A stretch of DNA of 64,000 nucleotides from Eledone cirrhosa (Eukaryota): assembly GCA_964016885.1 (NCBI GenBank), contig OZ024747.1:6200001-6264000 (forward strand). The letters run 5' to 3'. Below the pieces are notes generated by a model. That model ran no database searches. It worked only from the letters and a program-made list of their open reading frames with translations, and was not told where the DNA came from. Positions 1,041 to 59,021 of the stretch are shown in pieces (position 1 is the first letter of the stretch; each line of letters starts with the position of its first letter). The position numbers and the translations under genes were made by a program.

Positions 1041-3064
1041 TTGTATGTATGTATGTATGTTTTCTCTTTCTCTTAATTTCGAGTATATTTTTTTGACCGG
1101 CCACCTTCCTGGTGGCAAGGTTGTAAAAGAAAAGAAATTGTCATCCCTTGAATCGCAAGAATGTTTTGCAAATCTTGAAGGTGCCAGCTATCGCAGCCAT
1201 TTGTAGACTATGAATTAGGGAGCTGCGCTTTTTGTCCGCAAATCCAAGTTCATTCATACTTTGGTCCAAGCGGGTTGGTATATAACCCGTAGCACCAATA
1301 ATGATGGGTATGAAGCTAAAGGTGTATCTTGGATACTGGATTTGTAAACTCCTCATCAATGGTCCGTAGATGTCCTCCTTCTCCTGTATTTTTCTGACAA
1401 CGTTTACATCAAGTGGGCAGCTGATCTCCACAACAGAACACGTTTTCAATGTGTGGTCCCAAACTACAATATCAGGCCGGTTGTGCTTTAATTTGGTGGC
1501 AGTTTTTATTTTCAGGTTCCACCAGTATTCCTTAGTGCCATCTGTCTCAATATATTCTTCCTCGTTTGTTGTTAATTTTGTTTTCCGAAGTGCGTTCCAG
1601 ATGGTTCTAGCTATCCCATCGTGTCTCGTGGGGAGGTAGTAGCGAGATGACATTCTTTCGCAGCTGGCAACAATGTGGCTTACATCCTCGATCTTTGTTT
1701 TACATAGCCTACATTTATTGTCAGCTGCTGGCCCTCCTCTTTTGTGCAGCAGATATTTGGTAGGGAGTTCTTGTTCCTGTATTGCATAGAGATATCCCTC
1801 AAGGTGTGATGTCATAAACCTGTCGGAACTCCATGCCAGGCTTTTTGAGTGGTTTATCCCCTCTATGGTCTGTGTTTTACGCCTCAAGTATCCATGCACA
1901 ACTTTTTCTGTAAATTGGTCAATTTTTTTATCTTGTTTGAACATTGAATAGGATCTTCCGATTTCTCTGGGTGAGAGATTTATATCAGGCTTTATTCCAT
2001 ATCTCTCCTCCAGATCAGTCGCTATTCTAATGATATTTCTTTTTTCATGGTCATAAACCTGGGCAAGATGGTTGCCAGCCTTTTTCCTCTGTTGAAGGTG
2101 TTGCTTCAGTGTCACTATCCGGGTCTCATATGTTGTTAATATTGATTTTAGACCCCGGCCACCTTCCTTGCGTGAGAAGTATAGCCTATCCACATCACCA
2201 TTGATGTTAAAGTTCCCAGTAACACTGAGAAGTTTTCGAGTTCTAACATCCATCTCACTTAGTTCTTGCAATGACCAGTTCAGTAGGCCAAATGTTGGCG
2301 TTAGAATTGGCACAGCATAAGTATTGTGGGCAATGTATTTGTTGTATGCTGACAGTTCTGATGACCATATTTTCTTTACTCTTCTGAGGTATTCAGTTCT
2401 GGTTCTCTCCTTATTTATGGGTCCATCATATCTGACATTCTCATCCTGTCCAAGATATCTGTAGTTGTCACCTGACTGCAGAGGTTGTATTGTCAGGCCA
2501 TTCATCTCTAGATTTCTAGAGGAGGGCACAGCTCTTCCACGTTTTACTGCCAAATATGCACACTTGGACTCACCAAATTTCATTTTGATGTCGGTTGAAA
2601 ATTGTGTAATGAGGTCCAATTGTTTCTTGATGTCATTGATATTTGGCCCATACAACTTCAGGTCATCAACAAAGAAAAGATGGGAGATACTTCTGGTCCC
2701 ACTTCTTTGTCCACCTTGTTTCCTGAGTAGGTAAGATAGTGGATTCAGTGAGAGAACGAAGAGTAGCACTGACAAGCTATCACCCTGAAAGATGCCCTTC
2801 TGGTAATGAATCTTATCAGTCTTAACCTGCTTCTTCTCACCTCTAAGGATCAAACTGGTGTACCAGTTCTTGGTCAGGCGTTCAACAGCAGCTACCAATG
2901 GTTGTGGGACTTTAGCTAACTGTAAAGCCTTAACAATCCACCCATGAGGTACACTATCAAATGCTTTTTGATAGTCCAGCCACACGACAGTCATGTTTCT
3001 GCGATTCTTTGTTGTTTTTTCCTGAATCATTTTGTTAGTATGTATGTATGTATGTATGTATGTA
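1041..3064 (-). mobile_element. R4/Dong-clade RLE non-LTR retrotransposon, 5'-truncated, in a (TATG)n tract
   Basis: Intact RT+RLE ORF, short 3' UTR (1140-1061), (TATG)n at both ends (1043-1060 and 3038-3064). Confidence 0.9.
1141..3030 (-). CDS. Reverse transcriptase + CCHC zinc knuckle + restriction-like endonuclease (R4/Dong type), starts mid-RT
   Basis: WLDYQKAFDSVPH, GIFQGDSLS, FVDDLKLY, EGGRGL, CRLC..EDVSHIVASC, RHD, RPDIVV..VEISCP, KEDIY. Confidence 0.93.
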   Translation of the reverse strand: MIQEKTTKNRRNMTVVWLDYQKAFDSVPHGWIVKALQLAKVPQPLVAAVERLTKNWYTSLILRGEKKQVKTDKIHYQKGIFQGDSLSVLLFVLSLNPLSYLLRKQGGQRSGTRSISHLFFVDDLKLYGPNINDIKKQLDLITQFSTDIKMKFGESKCAYLAVKRGRAVPSSRNLEMNGLTIQPLQSGDNYRYLGQDENVRYDGPINKERTRTEYLRRVKKIWSSELSAYNKYIAHNTYAVPILTPTFGLLNWSLQELSEMDVRTRKLLSVTGNFNINGDVDRLYFSRKEGGRGLKSILTTYETRIVTLKQHLQQRKKAGNHLAQVYDHEKRNIIRIATDLEERYGIKPDINLSPREIGRSYSMFKQDKKIDQFTEKVVHGYLRRKTQTIEGINHSKSLAWSSDRFMTSHLEGYLYAIQEQELPTKYLLHKRGGPAADNKCRLCKTKIEDVSHIVASCERMSSRYYLPTRHDGIARTIWNALRKTKLTTNEEEYIETDGTKEYWWNLKIKTATKLKHNRPDIVVWDHTLKTCSVVEISCPLDVNVVRKIQEKEDIYGPLMRSLQIQYPRYTFSFIPIIIGATGYIPTRLDQSMNELGFADKKRSSLIHSLQMAAIAGTFKICKTFLRFKG

Positions 3065-3275
3065 TTACTTCAACATAAAAATTGACTTTGAAAGTATAAG
3101 GCTGATAATTGAATGTAAAAAGATTGATAAGAAAGGCTCCCAAAAAAAGTTTACAGGTATTTGTATGTATGTGTGTATTTTTATGTCGAAAATAAAGGGT
3201 TAAAGTTACTTATACAGAAAAATTTAGTTTGAAAGTGTTATGCCGATCTCTTTATCATTATATGCTATTGTTATT

Positions 3276-12300: not shown

Positions 12301-15300
12301 TTTAGCCAGTTTGGTGTGAAAAGTGTTTAGTTTACCTTAATCTTCAAACATATGCTATATTCTAGAGTAAATATTAATTATTTATTACAGTTGTATTGTG
12401 TTTTCTCTTCAGGATGAATTATACGGAAAACCCTGAACTGGCAGAGATTGAGTATCTTCATGGCAACATGACAGCTGGAGATTGTCTTTATATTCCTTTC
12501 TTATGGTTAGTTCTTATTTGGAAATTTTCTACTGTGATGATGAGGATGATGGTGGGCAGTGGTGGGCAGTGGTGGGAGGGGAATCTGTATTGTTGGGGTG
12601 GCAGGTGTCTCTCTCTCTATATATATAAATTCGGCTAGAACCAGTTTGAAACTGGTTAGACCATTACTCAACAGAGTACTTGATACTTGGGGTAGTAGAG
12701 TATGGTTATATTATAGAGTCGGGACCCCACAGCTGAGCGCTTACCGTTTCAACAGCTATATGATGATACAATATACAGACACAGTCATTCTGCACTTGGC
12801 AACCAGGCTCCATTCCACAAATATGGTCATAAAGCAAATTATGGACAGAAAAAGTTGACAGAGAAGCTTCTGGCCACTTTTTTTTTTATCTCTAGGAGTA
12901 CTTTATTGTATTTTCTCAACTTTTATTTATAGTGATTAACTATTATTACTCTATTACATGTTCCAGCTGATAGGGTGAAGCCATGTTGGGATGTCTGCAT
13001 GTCAAATAGACTGAGGCCATGCTGGGATGTCTGCATGTCAAATAGACTGAGGCCATGCTGGGATGTCTGCATGTCAAATAGACTGAGGCCATGCTGGGAT
13101 GTCTGCATTTCAAATAGGCTGAGGCCATGCTGGGATGTCTGCATGTCAAATAGGCTGAGGCCATGCTGGGATGTCTGCATTTCAAATAGGCTGAGGCCAT
13201 GTTGGGATGTCTGCATTTCAAATAGGCTGAGGCCATGTTGGGATGTCTGCATTTCAAATATATTGTATGTAGGTGACACAACAAAAAGCACCCAGTCCAC
13301 ACTGTAAAGTGGTCATGTAGGAGACATAGTAAAAAGGCTCTCAGTCCACACTGTAAATGTGGTTGGTGTTAGGAAAGGCATCCAGCCGTAGAAAACCTGT
13401 CAGAAACAGTTCTGTACGAGCGAGACACGGTCTCCCAACTAATCTTGCCTCAAGTGGGACAAAACCATCCAACCCATGCTAGCGTGGAAGATGGATGTTA
13501 AACGATGATGATGATGATTCTAAATCTTTTTGTTTTCCAGGATCCACCAGGTTCGTTCCTATGGAAGTAACTTGGCTGTTAATGTCTGGTGGAATAATTC
13601 CATAAACTATTTCGTTGATGTCAGCAAATGTTTGAAAGAGTGTAAAAATGACCTCAGTTTGGCAAATGTCAGCTTCAATATTAAAAGTGATGATGAATAT
13701 GATGAACTGGCTGACTTTCAGTGAGTATGTCTTCATGTTGGTATGGGTTTGGAAATAAACTGTTAGCTCTCACATCATTTATACTTGTTCAGGGCTGTAA
13801 GTATATCGTTAGTTCAGGTCTGTAAGGAAGGTGTTAGTTAAGGGCTGTAAGGAGGGTGTTAGTTCATACTGTCTATGTCATTAACCCTTTCATTACCATA
13901 TTTCTAATGAAAGACACTGTCTATGTCATTAACCCTTTCATTACCATATTTCTAATGAAAGACACTGCCTATGTCATTAACCCTTTCATTACAATATTTC
14001 TAATGAAAGACACTGCCTATGTCATTAACCCTTTCATTACAATATTTCTAATGAAAGACACTGTCTATGTCATTAACCCTTTCATTACCATATTTCTAAT
14101 GAAAGACACTGTCTATGTCATTAACCCTTTCATTACCATATTTCTAATGAAAGACACTGCCTATGTCTTTAACCCTTTCATTCCCATATTTCTACTGAAA
14201 GACACTATCTATGTCTTTAACCCTTTCATTACCATATTTCTAATGAAAGACACTGTCTATGTCATTAACCCTTTCATTACAATATTTCTAATGAAAGACA
14301 CTGCTTCTGATTTTTCAAATAAGTTTGAAAATATCCAAGAATTTGGTGAGATCTAGTAAACTTTCTCATTATTAAGCTGGTGTTTGGAAAGTAACTTAAC
14401 AAAGGTTCTTACATAAAATGATGATGGAAGGTTTTTAGCTGAACATAATTTAAAATAAACAGTTTTGTATCATCGAGCTAGAAGTGGTTTCAGGTAGTTT
14501 GGTATGAAAAAGGTTAGTTATACATATTCATGCTGCTGGCTTCCTTAAGTAATTCTCTTCAGCTCATTTTATTTTTAATTCTACCAATGTTTTGACCTGT
14601 ATTTTGGAGCCAAGTGGTTAGGGTGGTGTTAGACTTCTGATTGTTGATTTGATTGCTGGACAAGACACTTCATTTCATGTAGCTCCACTTGCCTCATCTG
14701 AAAAAATGAGCAACAGCAGCTGGTATAGAGAGGCTAACCCCGGCAACAGACTGGCATCTGGTTCAGGGTGGGGTATTCTTTTTATTATTATTATATAACT
14801 GGAGCCCCTATCATTAAAATAACTTAAGAAATCTGTGAGCTGCAACCTAAGCTTGGTTATGTGGGAGCTGTAACTATAACAACTGTATTTGGGGGACAAG
14901 CTATCACTTTAGGTCATCTGTCTCCTCTGTTTAACCCTTTAGCACTTAAACCTCGGCTATATCCCGCCAGAATTCACTCACTTCTTTCTGTTCATATCGG
15001 CTGTAACCAGCTGCTAATACTGACATTTCGGTATTGTTCTTAAAATAAATAATATCAAAATCTTGTAGATTCGATATTATGTGAGATAAAGCCTTTACTG
15101 TGAAAATATAATTGTAAATATAGAGTAATATAAATACTATAGGGTTAAATGTAGTGGACTAACTGTATTATGGTATTGTCTTTCAGAGATATGTTGTTTG
15201 GTCTGTTTGAGACGAAGAACAACATTGACTTGGCTGATATGAAGCTTATTCTGCTTGGGGTAAGTTATAACATACTGTATACAATTGTTAATGTGTGTGT

Positions 15301-17392
15301 GTGTGTGCGCATGCATATGTGTATAAAAAGCACATTATGACCTTTTCTGATTGTAGTGAACAGTATTTTCTATATATTTTGTCTAAAAAGTATATATATC
15401 ACTTTCTCTCTCTCTCTCCCTATATATATATATATATATATACACACACAGACACAAAAATATATATACACAGACACACACAAATATATATATACACACA
15501 CACATAGAAACTCAATTGAAAAGTCGTTATACTGTTATAATTCTTCATATTTCAGGATAAACTCACCAAAGATCTAGAGCAGATGAATGCAGGTTACGGT
15601 TATATTGCTCAGATTAAGAGGGTAAGACATCATTTTTCTTCAGATTTCAACAAGGTGTATTTTACCATTTTATCATGGCACCAGTACTACCACTTTAGAG
15701 TGTACTGGGTGCATTTTATTATGACACTGGCAGTATCATTTCAGAGTGTACTGGATGCAGGAGAAACTCTCCTGTGGTCTTGTAGGAGACACAGTAAAAA
15801 GGCTCCCAGTCCACACTGTAAAGTGGTCGTGTAGGAGACACAGTAAAAAGGCTCCCAGTCCACACTGTAAAGTAGTCGTGTAGGAGACATGATAAAAAGG
15901 CTCCCAGTCCACATTGTAAAGTGGTCGTGTAGGAGACATGATAAAAAGGCTCCCAGTCCACACTGTAAAGTGGTCATGTAGGAGACATGATAAAAAGGCT
16001 CCCAGTCCACACTGTAAAGTGGTCATGTAGGAGACATGATAAAAAGGCTCCCAGTCCACACTGTAAAGTGGTCGTGTAGGAGACATGATAAAAAGGCTCC
16101 CAGTCCACATTGTAAAGTGGTCGTGTAGGAGACATGATAAAAAGGCTCCCAGTCCACACTGTAAAGTGGTCGTGTAGGAGACACAGTAAAAAGGCTCCCA
16201 GTCCACATTGTAAAGTGGTCGTGTAGGAGACATGATAAAAAGGCTCCCAGTCCACACTGTAAAGTGGTCATGTAGGAGACATGATAAAAAGGCTCCCAGT
16301 CCACACTGTAAAGTGGTCGTGTAGGAGACATGATAAAAAGGCTCCCAGTCCACATTGTAAAGTGGTCGTGTAGGAGACATGATAAAAAGGCTCCCAGTCC
16401 ACACTGTAAAGTGGTCGTGTAGGAGACACAGTAAAAAGGCTCCCAGTCCACATTGTAAAGTGGTCGTGTAGGAGACATGATAAAAAGGCTCCCAGTCCAC
16501 ACTGTAAAGTGGTCGTGTAGGAGACATGATAAAAAGGCTCCCAGTCCACACTGTAAAGTGGTCGTGTAGGAGACATGATAAAAAGGCTCCCAGTCCACAC
16601 TGTAAAGTGGTCATGTAGGAGACATGATAAAAAGGCTCCCAGTCCACACTGTAAAGTGGTCGTGTAGGAGATACGATAAAAAGGCTCCCAGTCCACACTG
16701 TAAAGTGGTCGTGTAGGAGACATGATAAAAAGGCTCCCAGTCCACACTGTAAATGTGGTAGGTGTTAGGAAAGGCATTCAGCCATAGAAAACCTGCCAGA
16801 AACAGTTCTACACAAGTGAGACATGGTCACCTGACCAATCTTGTCTCAAGTGGGACAAACCCGTCCAACCCATGCTAGCGTGGAAGATGGACGTTAAACA
16901 ATGATGATGATGACAACTCAGGAACAATTTCAGGCCGGTTGGTCTAAAAAATGTTAAATATTTTTGCAGTTCATTCATGAAACTATAGAAAATCAAGCAT
17001 TGAAAGTGGATATAGTTTTAACTCTTTTTTTTCTTTTCTTTTGTCAGGTATTTCAGAAACTTGATATTAATAGAGATTGGACGATCAGTGAGGAAGAGCT
17101 GAGATCACTGCCTGATGAGGTATTTCTCTCATAACTGTTTATATTGGTTGTTTTATTAAGGTTGAATCAGTGGCCTGTTACTCTGGAGTTTCAATCGTGT
17201 CTCAACATACACTTCTCAGTATTGTCTAATAACCTTGTAAACACAGGTGGAATTCTACAGTAACAGGCAACTGACTTGTCATTAATAAAATTATATATAA
17301 ATATACACACACACATGTGTATATATATATATGTGTGTGTATATATATATGTGCATTTGTGTGTATATCATCATCACCGTTTAACATCCATA

Positions 17393-17435
<43 letters not shown>

Positions 17436-17560
17436 ATGCATTGTGTGTGTAACTGCAACATAATGGTTTGACAAATGTAAGTTAAATAAGTATTAGAATG
17501 GGTGTGATCAACTGAATTGGTAGTGCTCCAGCATGGTCACAGTTTTTAATGACAAACCAG

Positions 17561-17625
<65 letters not shown>

Positions 17626-18383
17626 TGTAATAAACAACACAATACAATTATTCCATTACCAAGGATTCACGAAGACAGGCGACCCCAACAGAGGCGTCCG
17701 AAGGAAAATTTAATATGATGAACGACTTCAGGTGCCTCTGTGGGGGTAGCCTGTCTTCGTGAAACCTTGGGTAATGGAATAATTATATTATCTTGTTTAT
17801 TACATAATTAAATAGCTCTGTACTATACATAGAGCACTCTTCTTTCCTTTACCTTTTCCATGGAAATACTTATCTATATTACGATTGGTGCTCTGAAATA
17901 GCGATGTATACATGAATGTATGTATAGTATATTTGGCAATATACCGTATGCTTAATTAAAAACATTTTGAAGACCTTGCACTATCATTACTGATTATTAC
18001 TGGAATTCTATAAGAATCCAGCCTCTATAATTTTCGGCAAGGCAGGGAGTACGTTGCTCTGAGGAACACCAACAGTGTGAAACAGAATCTGTCAGCTTCT
18101 CTCCCTTCATTGCCGAAAAAAGGAAGTAAGTGACATAGTCACTACTTTAAAATGATAGTGCAAGGTCTTCAAAATGTTTTTAATTAAGCATACGGTATAT
18201 TGCCAAATATACTATACACTTATATATATAAACTGAAAGTATCTAACAGATACATTGAGCACTATTTCTCTCTTTCTCCTTTTCCAGTTATGGGACGAGT
18301 GTATGGATTTGATCATTGACCTCACCCATCTGATTGATGCCATCCAGAAAGCAGAATCAAATATGCAACACCATGAGTTATAA
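5071..18383 (+). CDS. Secretory-pathway JmjC (cupin-like, TYW5/JMJD7/FIH-like) 2OG-Fe(II) oxygenase with EF-hand and C-terminal HHEL; 10 exons, 421 aa
   Basis: Exons 5071-5522, 7736-7799, 9144-9266, 9913-9959, 12413-12505, 13541-13720, 15187-15259, 15556-15621, 17048-17119, 18288-18383. All GT-AG, phases match, total 1266 nt. Signal peptide MSCWFCLLLLLYSSVVFA; FFREYVLASRPLKMKGAA; WFSSGGTKSVIHTD; GDCLYIPFLWIHQVRS; NLAVNVWW; DINRDWTISEEEL; ends HHEL*. Confidence 0.93.
5975..6021 (+). mobile_element. Helitron-like 3' terminus (remnant)
   Basis: ccccgagcaacaccgagc...tgCTAG|t: degenerate subterminal hairpin followed by CTAG and T. 5' end not located. Confidence 0.45.
6169..6323. mobile_element. 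Tc1/mariner (pogo-like) MITE
   Basis: 25-bp TIRs cgtatttcccggcgtcgaagacgct / agcgtcttcgacgccgggaaatacg in TA-rich flanks. Confidence 0.8.
7736..7799 (+). CDS. JmjC gene exon 2
   Basis: ttttag|A CAA GAT GTG...; QDVIIPCCIQCPDLEEYFTNT; donor gtaagt. Confidence 0.88.
9144..9266 (+). CDS. JmjC gene exon 3 (HxD metal ligands)
   Basis: VMWFSSGGTKSVIHTDELDNINCLFRGDKEIVFVDPKYQDR; cag| acceptor, |gtgaga donor. Confidence 0.93.
9367..9482 (+). mobile_element. tRNA-derived SINE family B (CORE-like gtccttgagcaagacactt)
   Basis: A-box-like TGGCTGAGTGG, degenerate B box, core motif. Other copies about 18601-18720 and 54596-54905. Confidence 0.7.
9773..9855. mobile_element. Tc1/mariner MITE (83 bp)
   Basis: TA|CAGGGTGT...ACACCCTG|TA with extended internal inverted symmetry. 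Confidence 0.85.
9913..9959 (+). CDS. JmjC gene exon 4
   Basis: IQLKTRGSYSNIDVD(R); tag| acceptor, |gtaatt donor. Confidence 0.88.
12413..12505 (+). CDS. JmjC gene exon 5
   Basis: MNYTENPELAEIEYLHGNMTAGDCLYIPFL(W); |gttagt donor. Confidence 0.92.
12978..13260. repeat. 36-bp minisatellite, ~8 copies
   Basis: Unit gaggccatgctgggatgtctgcatgtcaaatagact. Confidence 0.95.
13541..13720 (+). CDS. JmjC gene exon 6 (distal His)
   Basis: IHQVRSYGSNLAVNVWW...DELADF(Q); |gtgagt donor. Confidence 0.92.
13868..14517. mobile_element. piggyBac-type (TTAA) MITE whose left end is amplified as a 48-bp x ~9 array (13868-14305)
   Basis: Each unit carries ttaa|ccctttcattacc; right end ggtatgaaaaagg|ttag. Related decayed copies near 21300-21466, 28120-28370, 29150-29530, 34029 and 44580. 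Confidence 0.65.
15187..15259 (+). CDS. JmjC gene exon 7
   Basis: DMLFGLFETKNNIDLADMKLILLG; |gtaagt donor. Confidence 0.82.
15556..15621 (+). CDS. JmjC gene exon 8
   Basis: DKLTKDLEQMNAGYGYIAQIKR; |gtaaga donor. Confidence 0.8.
15775..16755. repeat. 49-bp minisatellite, ~20 copies, inside an RTE 3'-end copy (to ~16912, + orientation)
   Basis: Unit aaaaaggctcccagtccacactgtaaagtggtcgtgtaggagacatgat, followed by the RTE 3' terminus and (GAT)n tail. Confidence 0.95.
17048..17119 (+). CDS. JmjC gene exon 9 (EF-hand loop)
   Basis: VFQKLDINRDWTISEEELRSLPDE; |gtattt donor. Confidence 0.85.
17621..18225. mobile_element. (TA)n-embedded foldback element carrying a hammerhead ribozyme (probably Penelope-like-element derived)
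   Basis: Imperfect IR 17621-17810; perfect 68-bp IR 17921-17988/18151-18218; hammerhead at its centre; TA tracts on both flanks; short related segment at ~62915-62942. Confidence 0.6.
18031..18119 (+). ncRNA. Type I hammerhead ribozyme motif (GUC site, predicted cut after 18093)
   Basis: gct-CTGAGGA-ACAC(caaca)GTGT-GAA-ACAG(aat)CTGT-C-agc. All core nucleotides present. Stem I extends through gggag/ctccc and ttttcggcaa/ttgccgaaaa. Confidence 0.85.
18288..18383 (+). CDS. JmjC gene exon 10 (terminal, HHEL)
   Basis: Strong pyrimidine tract then ccag|; LWDECMDLIIDLTHLIDAIQKAESNMQHHEL*. Confidence 0.87.
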   Translation, partial: LWDECMDLIIDLTHLIDAIQKAESNMQHHEL

Positions 18384-19539
18384 TAAGTTGGCCATCTTCT
18401 GCCAACTAATTGGAATAGGAGATACCCTTAAAAACACAAAAAAGCTAATACCTGCCACATTGATAAGATTTGGTCACAAAATATTTCTGGGTAAACTGAA
18501 ACTTTCTTGAATCTCATTTAAAAAAAAACCTCACAACAATGTTCCTACTCAGATATTTATCTAACACCATAACACAACCCATTTCTAACTGGATTTCTAT
18601 GAGGGAAGCGTGGCCTAGTGGTTATGGGGTTAAACTGATGATCAAAAAGTCGTAAGTTTGATCCCTAAACTGGGCCACGCATTGTGTTTTTCAGCAAGAC
18701 GCTTCCTTTCATGTTGCTTATCATAAAAGGACCAAGGTCCCTACCATTAAAACATCCGTGATACTTCCTATGATATGTAACTTTGTTGGAGGCCAAGCTA
18801 TACTTGCATAAATGTGATCTCTAAATTTCATTTTCATTTGAAAAAGGGGAAAAATCCAGGAACTATTTGGATTATCTCACACTTGCATTGGATTATCTAT
18901 GAATCTTGGATAGGAATTTCAGATTTTATTTTTTATTATTTTATATTGTTATTTCTAAACTCATCAGTAATGTGTGTTATATTGTTATTTCTAAACTCAT
19001 CAGTAATGTGTGTTTCACCCTCCCATCATAATGTTCCTTCATCTAAACTGTATTGTCACATCTCCTTTTTTGGAGCTTATATTTTCTGTTTTTCTTTCTT
19101 TTCCAAGGATTGGGGGTTGACAAAAATACTTATTGTACATAAGATATGCTATTATTAAAATAATAGAAAAATATATGAAAAAGAGAAAGGAAAAAAGTTT
19201 CTGAGATTTGTTTCTCTCTATGTAATGAGTGTGTATCATCATCATCATCGTTTAACGTCCGTGTTCCACGCTTGCATGGGTTTGGACGGGGGTTTTCCCA
19301 CTTGAGGCAAGAGTGATTGTCTTGCTCGCATAGGACTGTCTGGCGGGTTTTCTACAGCTGGATGCCCTTCCTAACACCAACCACATTTACAGTGTGGGGC
19401 TGGGAGGTTTTTACCGTGTTGCCTACATGGCCACATTACAGCGTGGACTGTTATGTTTGTATATATACATATATGTGTATATATATATATAATTATTTAA
19501 TATAGAAATGGTTTCTACAGGATTAGAAATGTTTCGTTC

Positions 19540-27991: not shown

Positions 27992-59021
<31,030 letters not shown>

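What the first reader, a model, noticed from the sequence alone, without database searches (positions are those of the whole stretch)
17921..18218. Intact hammerhead ribozyme at the apex of a perfect 68-bp foldback in the last intron of the JmjC gene
Seen on the host sense strand: core CUGAGGA (18059-65), stem II ACAC/GUGU, GAA, stem III ACAG/CUGU, GUC cleavage triplet (cut after 18093), and stem I gcu/agc extended across an internal loop by gggag/cuccc and uuuucggcaa/uugccgaaaa. All of this is enclosed by perfect 68-bp arms (17921-17988/18151-18218) ending ~70 nt before the final acceptor. Known: type I hammerheads mark Penelope-like elements and retrozymes; short stem III forms often need dimerisation. 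Inference: a non-coding, rod-shaped, ribozyme-bearing mobile element that favours (TA)n. If active it would cut the pre-mRNA just before the exon encoding the HHEL signal.
Basis: partly seen in the sequence, partly recalled or inferred. Interest (0 to 1): 0.75.

Follow-up and report, generated by a model that had tools for sequence, protein, structure and literature searches.

The report
Penelope-inserted hammerhead retrozyme, truncated copy
This is one truncated copy of a roughly 317-base non-coding repeat with a hammerhead-ribozyme motif, present in hundreds to thousands of copies; its foldback is likely a scar left when a Penelope-type retrotransposon enzyme copied the repeat's RNA from both ends of a DNA break, and a spliced contig still joins the host gene's last exon across it.

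Summary
Observation confirmed: type I hammerhead motif at 18053-18099 and perfect 68-bp arms, in the gene's last intron. The foldback is not part of the mobile unit. The unit is a ~317-nt monomer with 560 exact core matches and 1,329 exact tail matches in the genome. It occurs in partial tandems, and its stems covary. Of 58 position-ordered loci, 27 are back-to-back pairs with variable arm length (110-347 nt) and 31 are one-directional. Outer ends fall at two sites 34 nt apart, beside (TA)n. In 17 of 18 classifiable pairs exactly one arm has the 34-nt tail, the published Penelope-like-element (PLE) footprint. Best reading: a non-LTR retrozyme mobilised in trans by a PLE, with both target strands priming on its RNA. 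The window copy holds 236 of 317 nt in sense and is likely a dead end. Cleavage is untested; an inactive fold is predicted 4.1 kcal/mol more stable. No autonomous partner was found in 80 PLE loci. This scan noted the same footprint, probably this family too, elsewhere in the genome.

The parts
17048..17119 (+). Penultimate exon of the host cupin/JmjC-like gene (5' boundary read from the sequence only)
   Evidence: loose end of the X4 contig maps to 17088-17117; GT donor at 17120
17120..18287 (+). Last intron (1,168 nt), holding two nested hammerhead-bearing repeats
17620..17870 (.). Neighbouring, unrelated foldback repeat (family 2) with a truncated hammerhead and a one-sided tail of about 56 nt; its (TA)n end is the insertion site of the finding's element
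17871..17878 (.). Degenerate (TA)n, left flank of the insertion
17878..17911 (-).
   Evidence: L001 1479-1589, 3' end at monomer position 168
17878..17988 (-). Inverted, 5'-truncated copy of the monomer's 3' part (111 nt); its inner 68 nt form the left arm
17983..18218 (+). Sense, 5'-truncated copy (236 of 317 nt) ending near end site A; overlaps the inverted copy by a few bases at the junction
18031..18119 (+). Type I hammerhead with extended stem I: GTAC bulge 18049-52, stem I 18053-58/18094-99, core 18059-65, stem II 18066-69/18075-78, GAAA 18079-82, stem III 18082-85/18089-92, predicted cut after C18093
18221..18230 (.). (TA)5, right flank of the insertion
18288..18383 (+). Coding part of the final exon, ending HHEL-stop

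Best explanation
The feature is a truncated two-armed insertion of a ~317-nt non-coding hammerhead repeat (a non-LTR retrozyme), likely written into a (TA)n tract by a Penelope-like element's reverse transcriptase/GIY-YIG endonuclease acting in trans. Shown: the dispersed family, its tandem monomer, two fixed 3' ends 34 nt apart, (TA)n flanks, variable 5' truncation, and back-to-back pairs in which one arm has the tail and the other does not. Inferred steps: (1) tandem source copies are transcribed, and the hammerheads cut the RNA into monomers that may circularise. (2) A PLE protein nicks both strands in (TA)n. (3) Each nicked strand primes reverse transcription on the repeat RNA, one at site A and one at site B. 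(4) The two incomplete cDNAs are joined at their truncated ends, which gives a foldback whose length is simply the overlap of the two cDNAs (68 bp here). This copy has one hammerhead and less than one monomer in sense, so it would not release a unit RNA and is likely a dead end. Its ribozyme probably cuts slowly or needs help, and probably has no major effect on the host mRNA.
For: Copy number: 560 exact matches to the 27-nt core pattern and 1,329 to a 26-nt tail pattern, with 0 for the reversed controls; 2,324 candidates for the DNA query, 40 scored. Tandem period of about 280-330 nt in 25 same-direction pairs. Ends and pairing in 58 position-ordered loci (60 fetched, 2 duplicates dropped): 27 inverted and 31 one-directional; outer ends A 33, B 39, other 13; (TA)n beside 68 of 72 A/B ends. 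Of the 27 inverted loci, 18 had both ends classifiable and 17 were A+B, 1 A+A, 0 B+B (p=7e-5 against 0.5). The two biased sets gave 15 of 15 and 16 of 17. Literature: inverted 5'-truncated copy, 30-40-bp tail often at one end only, and (TA)n targets (PMC8557442, passages); a PLE protein cleaves and extends both strands and starts at two internal RNA sites that delimit the tail (PMC11167929, parts 1-2 of 4). RT plus C-terminal GIY-YIG PLEs exist in this genome, and several end in (TA)n with their own hammerheads. Covariation: 93% of cells paired, 58 both-side changes against 16 in shuffles; one stem II pair is A-U in 63 rows and G-C in 16. The arms of one locus are closer than arms of different loci (median 0.048 vs 0.081, n=54, p=2.5e-5). 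The window's two arms share a two-variant combination seen in none of the other 199 segments.
Against: No autonomous PLE sharing sequence with the monomer was found in 30+20 GIY-YIG loci or in 30 loci of a second PLE type. The matches there (L032, L187, L200) were separate insertions of the repeat, and one weak profile match in L036 lay outside that PLE; these 80 are a small sample of over 10,000 candidates. No cleavage, circular RNA or RNA end was observed. A fold pairing the core with stem III is predicted more stable by 4.1 kcal/mol in this copy, and in all 69 of 85 copies that could be tested (2.0-17.3 kcal/mol); tertiary contacts are not modelled. The covariation control ignores relatedness, so the 58 cells reflect a handful of events; the two measures less sensitive to relatedness were not significant (54/500 and 468/500). 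The nearest arm at another locus is usually closer (median 0.017) than the partner arm, so a single template molecule is not shown. Target-site duplications cannot be read inside (TA)n.
Confidence: 0.82

Rival explanations
1. A rod-shaped hairpin element or MITE whose 68-bp inverted arms are its fixed termini, with the ribozyme as cargo at the apex.
For: The arms are perfect and the region folds at z=-19; the TA context also fits some DNA transposons (recalled).
Against: Shorter-arm lengths run from 110 to 347 nt in 27 inverted loci, 31 of 58 loci have no inverted arm, and the two outer ends differ by a 34-nt tail. The hammerhead lies in one arm, both arms or neither, and copies read through into tandem monomers.
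Confidence: 0.03
2. The same retrozyme family, but spread or rearranged by DNA-level processes (satellite slippage, recombination at (TA)n, replication template switching), so that the inversions are secondary and no PLE enzyme primes on its RNA.
For: No partner PLE was found. (TA)n tracts are unstable (recalled). Li et al. favour local tandem amplification of PLE termini (10.64898/2026.07.22.740005, parts 1-3 of 5 read).
Against: Two fixed 3' ends with random 5' truncation, dispersed loci on many contigs and 17 of 18 A+B pairs are not expected from DNA slippage. The same geometry is seen in PLE copies in this genome (L172, L181 inverted; L170/L174/L181 with two ends).
Confidence: 0.08
3. This copy has been co-opted as a regulatory intronic ribozyme that cuts the pre-mRNA and tunes inclusion of the HHEL exon, like the conserved amniote intronic hammerheads.
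For: Sense orientation, intact core, 194 nt before the last acceptor; best Rfam match is HH9, an intronic family (the intronic role is recalled).
Against: The copy is up to 95-97% identical to dispersed siblings over the sense unit, so an intact core needs no host selection. A contig joins the final exon to the upstream exon. An inactive fold is predicted to dominate.
Confidence: 0.05
4. The sequences are only solo pseudo-LTR fragments of an autonomous PLE that my sampling missed, not an independent non-coding monomer.
For: Most PLE copies are 5'-truncated and can give opposite-strand hammerhead pairs 100-700 bp apart (PMC4209133).
Against: Read-through past the tail enters another copy of the monomer, not an ORF (24 read-throughs in 60 loci; 23 in 40). 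No contiguous PLE ORF was seen in 100 sampled loci.
Confidence: 0.04

Closest known systems
Animal non-LTR retrozymes (coral, mussel, axolotl: Cervera and de la Pena 2020, PMC7229834, passages and part 2 of 6 read; vertebrates: Li, Clavereau and Pollet 2026, 10.64898/2026.07.22.740005, parts 1-3 of 5 read)
   Same: Non-coding 150-450-bp monomer, one type I hammerhead per unit, low GC, dispersed and tandem copies, no LTR/PBS/PPT, suspected PLE link.
   Different: Copies here are mostly partial (under two monomers per arm), sit in (TA)n, and about half are back-to-back pairs with a one-sided 34-nt tail. The word 'inverted' does not occur in PMC7229834 and occurs once in the preprint. Circular RNA and cleavage are shown for the coral elements, not here.
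EN+ Penelope-like elements (Neptune, Penelope/Poseidon, Naiad; PMC8557442 passages; PAc in vitro, PMC11167929 parts 1-2 of 4)
   Same: 5' truncation, partial tandems, inverted 5'-truncated partner, 30-40-bp tail at one end, (TA)n/AT-rich targets, type I hammerhead upstream of the 3' end.
   Different: No RT/GIY-YIG ORF; no sequence homology found to any of 80 sampled PLE loci; the hammerhead has a canonical 6-position stem I and a 3-4-bp stem III rather than the minimal PLE form (PMC4209133).
Amniote intronic hammerheads HH9/HH10 (Rfam RF02275)
   Same: Type I geometry, UAC bulge, CAA-A loop II, intronic sense position.
   Different: 20.3 bits against a gathering score of 52; a high-copy mobile repeat, not a single conserved locus.

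Membership tests
Type I hammerhead ribozyme | Core CUGANGA, GAAA, NUH with stems II and III closed and stem I open | tested here: met
   core intact in 79 of 85 aligned copies (51 rows were selected on this pattern); in 40 copies not selected on an exact core, at most 3 deviate at any invariant position
Type I hammerhead ribozyme | Compensatory changes in stems | tested here: met
   stem II A-U/G-C 63/16; outer stem five pairs with both-side changes; stem I position 6 G-C 58 / U-A 20; few independent events
Type I hammerhead ribozyme | Loop I-loop II tertiary contact | tested here: inconclusive
   bulge and loop align with the HH9 model, below gathering; no 3D test
Type I hammerhead ribozyme | Self-cleavage after C17 | not testable with these tools
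   no raw reads; predicted competing fold 4.1 kcal/mol lower
Non-LTR retrozyme | Short non-coding tandem monomer with one type I hammerhead per unit | tested here: met
   317-nt period; two hammerheads in tandem at L101, L113; the window copy itself is sub-monomeric
Non-LTR retrozyme | Dispersed multi-copy family without LTR or ORF | tested here: met
Non-LTR retrozyme | Expressed as linear and circular monomer RNA | not testable with these tools
   only contigs were available; a monomer end-to-start joint occurs in X4 and X1 alike and is explained by genomic tandems
Non-autonomous PLE-mobilised element | 5' truncation, inverted partner and optional 30-40-bp tail | tested here: met
Non-autonomous PLE-mobilised element | Microsatellite/AT-rich target | tested here: met
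   68 of 72 classified ends
Non-autonomous PLE-mobilised element | Sequence shared with the pLTR or tail of an autonomous PLE | tested here: inconclusive
   none in 80 PLE loci sampled from more than 10,000 candidates
Autonomous PLE | RT plus GIY-YIG ORF | tested here: not met
   no contiguous ORF in the window or in 100 sampled loci
MITE / foldback DNA transposon | Fixed terminal inverted repeats on all copies | tested here: not met

The most novel reading that the evidence does not exclude
Retrozyme insertions record the PLE reaction itself. A dimeric PLE protein holds one small, probably circular hammerhead RNA and primes both strands of a cut (TA)n at two fixed start sites 34 nt apart, one site per strand, and the two cDNAs are then joined head to head. 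This would explain the PLE inverted-repeat-plus-tail structure and show directly how animal retrozymes are mobilised, even by a PLE with which they share no recognisable sequence.
Probability: 0.5. Interest if true: 0.7.

Novelty: new member of a known kind. Interest (0 to 1): 0.42.

Why it matters
The copy itself is ordinary repeat DNA. The family matters because the papers I read leave two questions open: how animal retrozymes are inserted, and how PLEs make inverted repeats with a one-sided tail. The near-strict one-tailed, one-untailed pairing (17 of 18 in the unbiased set) gives a sharp prediction. The 317-nt RNA is a minimal substrate on which two start sites, circular versus linear template and need for the ribozyme can be tested with a purified PLE protein.

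Tried and rejected
Rfam over 6 kb found no hammerhead at E<=1; the microRNA hits are microsatellite or hairpin artefacts. Sequencing runs: no RNA holder listed. X4 is treated as RNA-like only because one contig joins two exons, and all four runs are contigs from one study, so they say nothing on RNA ends, strand, level or circularity. Family sequence is present in X4, but intronic read-through would explain it. The first pair count used a structure shifted by some columns and is discarded; one search replaces it. The fuzzy end count included false 'no tail' matches and is replaced. Partner search was negative in GIY-YIG loci L031-L060 and L167-L186 and in a second PLE type, L187-L216. L032 looked like a partner (GIY-YIG 950 nt upstream of the core) but is a separate two-armed insertion at that PLE's (TA)n end. 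The arm-identity test favours a common source but cannot separate one RNA molecule from one source locus or gene conversion. Literature: 7 searches. In the listings and the parts read I saw no description of retrozymes with PLE-type twin arms or of strict A+B pairing. The library lacks most subscription papers, and the preprint's supplements were not visible. The terms octopus/cephalopod were my guess from composition, not a result. One search was seen as a listing only and is not used as evidence. Look-ups of earlier findings by sequence and near this place returned nothing.

Full report
Observation. The sequence is as described. Arms 17921-17988 and 18151-18218 are exact reverse complements, and a type I hammerhead motif lies between them: core at 18059, C17 at 18093. 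It was the only hit of my descriptor in the window. Rfam misses it over 6 kb but aligns it to Hammerhead_HH9 on a short stretch, at E=0.005 and below gathering. A 1,923-nt contig of run X4 joins the exon ending at 17119 to the exon starting at 18288. The element is thus in the last intron (17120-18287), and the last exon encodes LWDE...HHEL*. The one upstream exon tested gave a sub-threshold Cupin_8 match.

It is a repeat family. The region gave 2,324 candidates in the genome, of which 40 were scored. Exact patterns gave 560 matches for the ribozyme core and 1,329 for a 3' segment, with 0 for the reversed controls. Copies that run on past the 3' end enter the same sequence again and define a monomer of about 317 nt. 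No ORF was contiguous with the repeat in 60 core-anchored and 40 tail-anchored loci taken in genome order on contig C1.

The foldback is an insertion pattern, not the unit. Of 58 core-anchored loci (2 duplicates dropped), 27 are back-to-back pairs with 3' ends facing outward and 31 run in one direction. The shorter arm ranges from 110 to 347 nt. Outer ends fall at two sites, A (33) and B (39), which are 34 nt apart; 13 ends fit neither. (TA)n lies beside 68 of the 72 A/B ends. Among the 18 inverted loci with both ends classifiable, 17 are A+B, 1 is A+A and none is B+B (p=7e-5 against 50%). The best-hit set (15 of 15) and the tail-anchored set (16 of 17) agree, but both are biased by how they were chosen. 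The window copy fits this pattern. Its right copy is 17983-18218 and ends near A. It sits in the (TA)n end of a second, unrelated hammerhead foldback repeat at 17620-17870.

This is the published PLE footprint. Craig et al. describe partial tandems, an inverted 5'-truncated copy, a 30-40-bp tail often at one end only, and (TA)n targets (PMC8557442, passages). Frangieh et al. show that a PLE protein cleaves and extends both target strands, starts at two internal RNA sites that delimit the tail, is predicted to be a dimer, and does not need hammerhead cleavage in vitro (PMC11167929, parts 1-2 of 4). This genome holds RT plus GIY-YIG PLEs, several ending in (TA)n with their own hammerheads and some in inverted pairs. 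None of 80 sampled PLE loci shares sequence with the monomer except as separate insertions, so the partner is unidentified.

Ribozyme. On 85 aligned copies, 93% of stem cells pair, with 58 both-side changes against 16 in shuffles. One stem II pair is A-U in 63 rows and G-C in 16, and stem I position 6 is G-C in 58 and U-A in 20. These reflect few events, and the two measures less sensitive to relatedness were not significant. Stem III varies in length while staying paired, and 22 of 85 copies have a palindromic form. Sister families keep the fold with different sequence. One has mostly a U3-A8 core in the copies read, a variant known from PLEs (PMC4209133, parts 1-2 of 4). Against strong activity of this copy: two U-U mismatches in stem I (family-wide), and a competing fold predicted 4.1 kcal/mol more stable; this holds for all 69 testable copies. 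In published tests a coral monomer cut efficiently (PMC7229834, part 2), while 1 of 9 Xenopus dimers did.

Mechanism. Shown: the family, its monomer, ends, targets, pairing rule and covariation. Inferred: transcription of tandem source copies; hammerhead processing and possible circularisation; nicking of both (TA)n strands by a PLE protein; one cDNA begun at A and one at B; joining of the two truncated cDNAs. Partner arms are closer to each other than to arms elsewhere (0.048 vs 0.081, n=54), and the window's arms share a variant pair absent from 199 other segments. The nearest outside arm is nonetheless usually closer (0.017), so a single template molecule is not proven. A sister 310-nt family at L222 has six hammerheads at exact 310-nt spacing, with 0 mismatches in four successive monomer comparisons; this suits a circular template but also recent duplication. 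The window copy has one hammerhead and 236 of 317 nt in sense, so it likely cannot produce a unit RNA. An effect on the host is unshown, and the spliced join across it exists.

Comparison and verdict. It meets the sequence criteria of a non-LTR retrozyme; circular RNA and cleavage could not be tested. It works like a non-autonomous PLE and is not a MITE or an autonomous PLE. It is a new member of a known kind. The part I did not find in print (7 searches; listings and the named parts only) is the PLE twin-arm footprint on a retrozyme with near-strict A+B pairing. I obtained that result; one search then showed that the scan had noted the same footprint in this genome, for a 316-bp family that is probably this one and for 310-nt and 591-nt families. 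Those notes are not independent evidence. Interest 0.42.

Noticed in passing
window 17620-17870: A second hammerhead-bearing foldback family (1,361 candidates, 40 scored) with a long stem II, a 3-bp stem III, a one-sided tail of about 56 nt and (TA)n ends; the window copy's core is cut at the inversion junction. The finding's element is nested at its end.
   Followed up: partly
L096:138-272 and L137-L166: A sister family (1,167 candidates; about 74% identical in the 3' part, same two-end layout). Its core reads TTGATAA in 6 and TCGATAA in 2 of the 15 motif matches (3 of them spurious): a U3-A8 swap relative to this family.
   Followed up: partly
L222:256-2240 (G000:C1 near 24,875,450): Array of about six identical 310-nt monomers of another sister family with a canonical core, ending at the site-A equivalent before (TA)n; apparently very young.
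   Followed up: partly
L031-L060, L167-L186: Several RT/GIY-YIG PLE families; one ends in (TA)n with a U3-A8 minimal hammerhead about 200-230 nt upstream, and another has two 3' ends about 50-60 nt apart and inverted pairs. ORFs of 636-938 aa remain (L168, L170).
   Followed up: partly
L008:1966-2050: Contig depth over the hammerhead part of the monomer is roughly 10-100 times lower than over its flanks even at 80% likeness, and loose ends show other cores: the ribozyme module appears far more variable than the rest of the monomer.
   Followed up: partly
window 17921-18218: The 68-bp perfect duplex in a sense intron would be a substrate for dsRNA editing or processing enzymes (inference; no RNA reads to test).
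   Followed up: no
window 15627-16906, 13838-14383, 12923-13368: Minisatellites of 49 and 48 bp and a shorter one in upstream introns of the same gene; the 49-bp unit has an inverted relative at 19339-19450.
   Followed up: no
window 1141-3069 (-) and 38517-41033 (-): Long reading frames (642 and 838 aa) that look like non-LTR retrotransposon reverse transcriptases, by eye.
   Followed up: no
window 33697-36000 and 44243-44668 (-): Exon-like frames of another gene on the minus strand (by eye resembling AMOP/VWD mucin-like proteins; label recalled).
   Followed up: no
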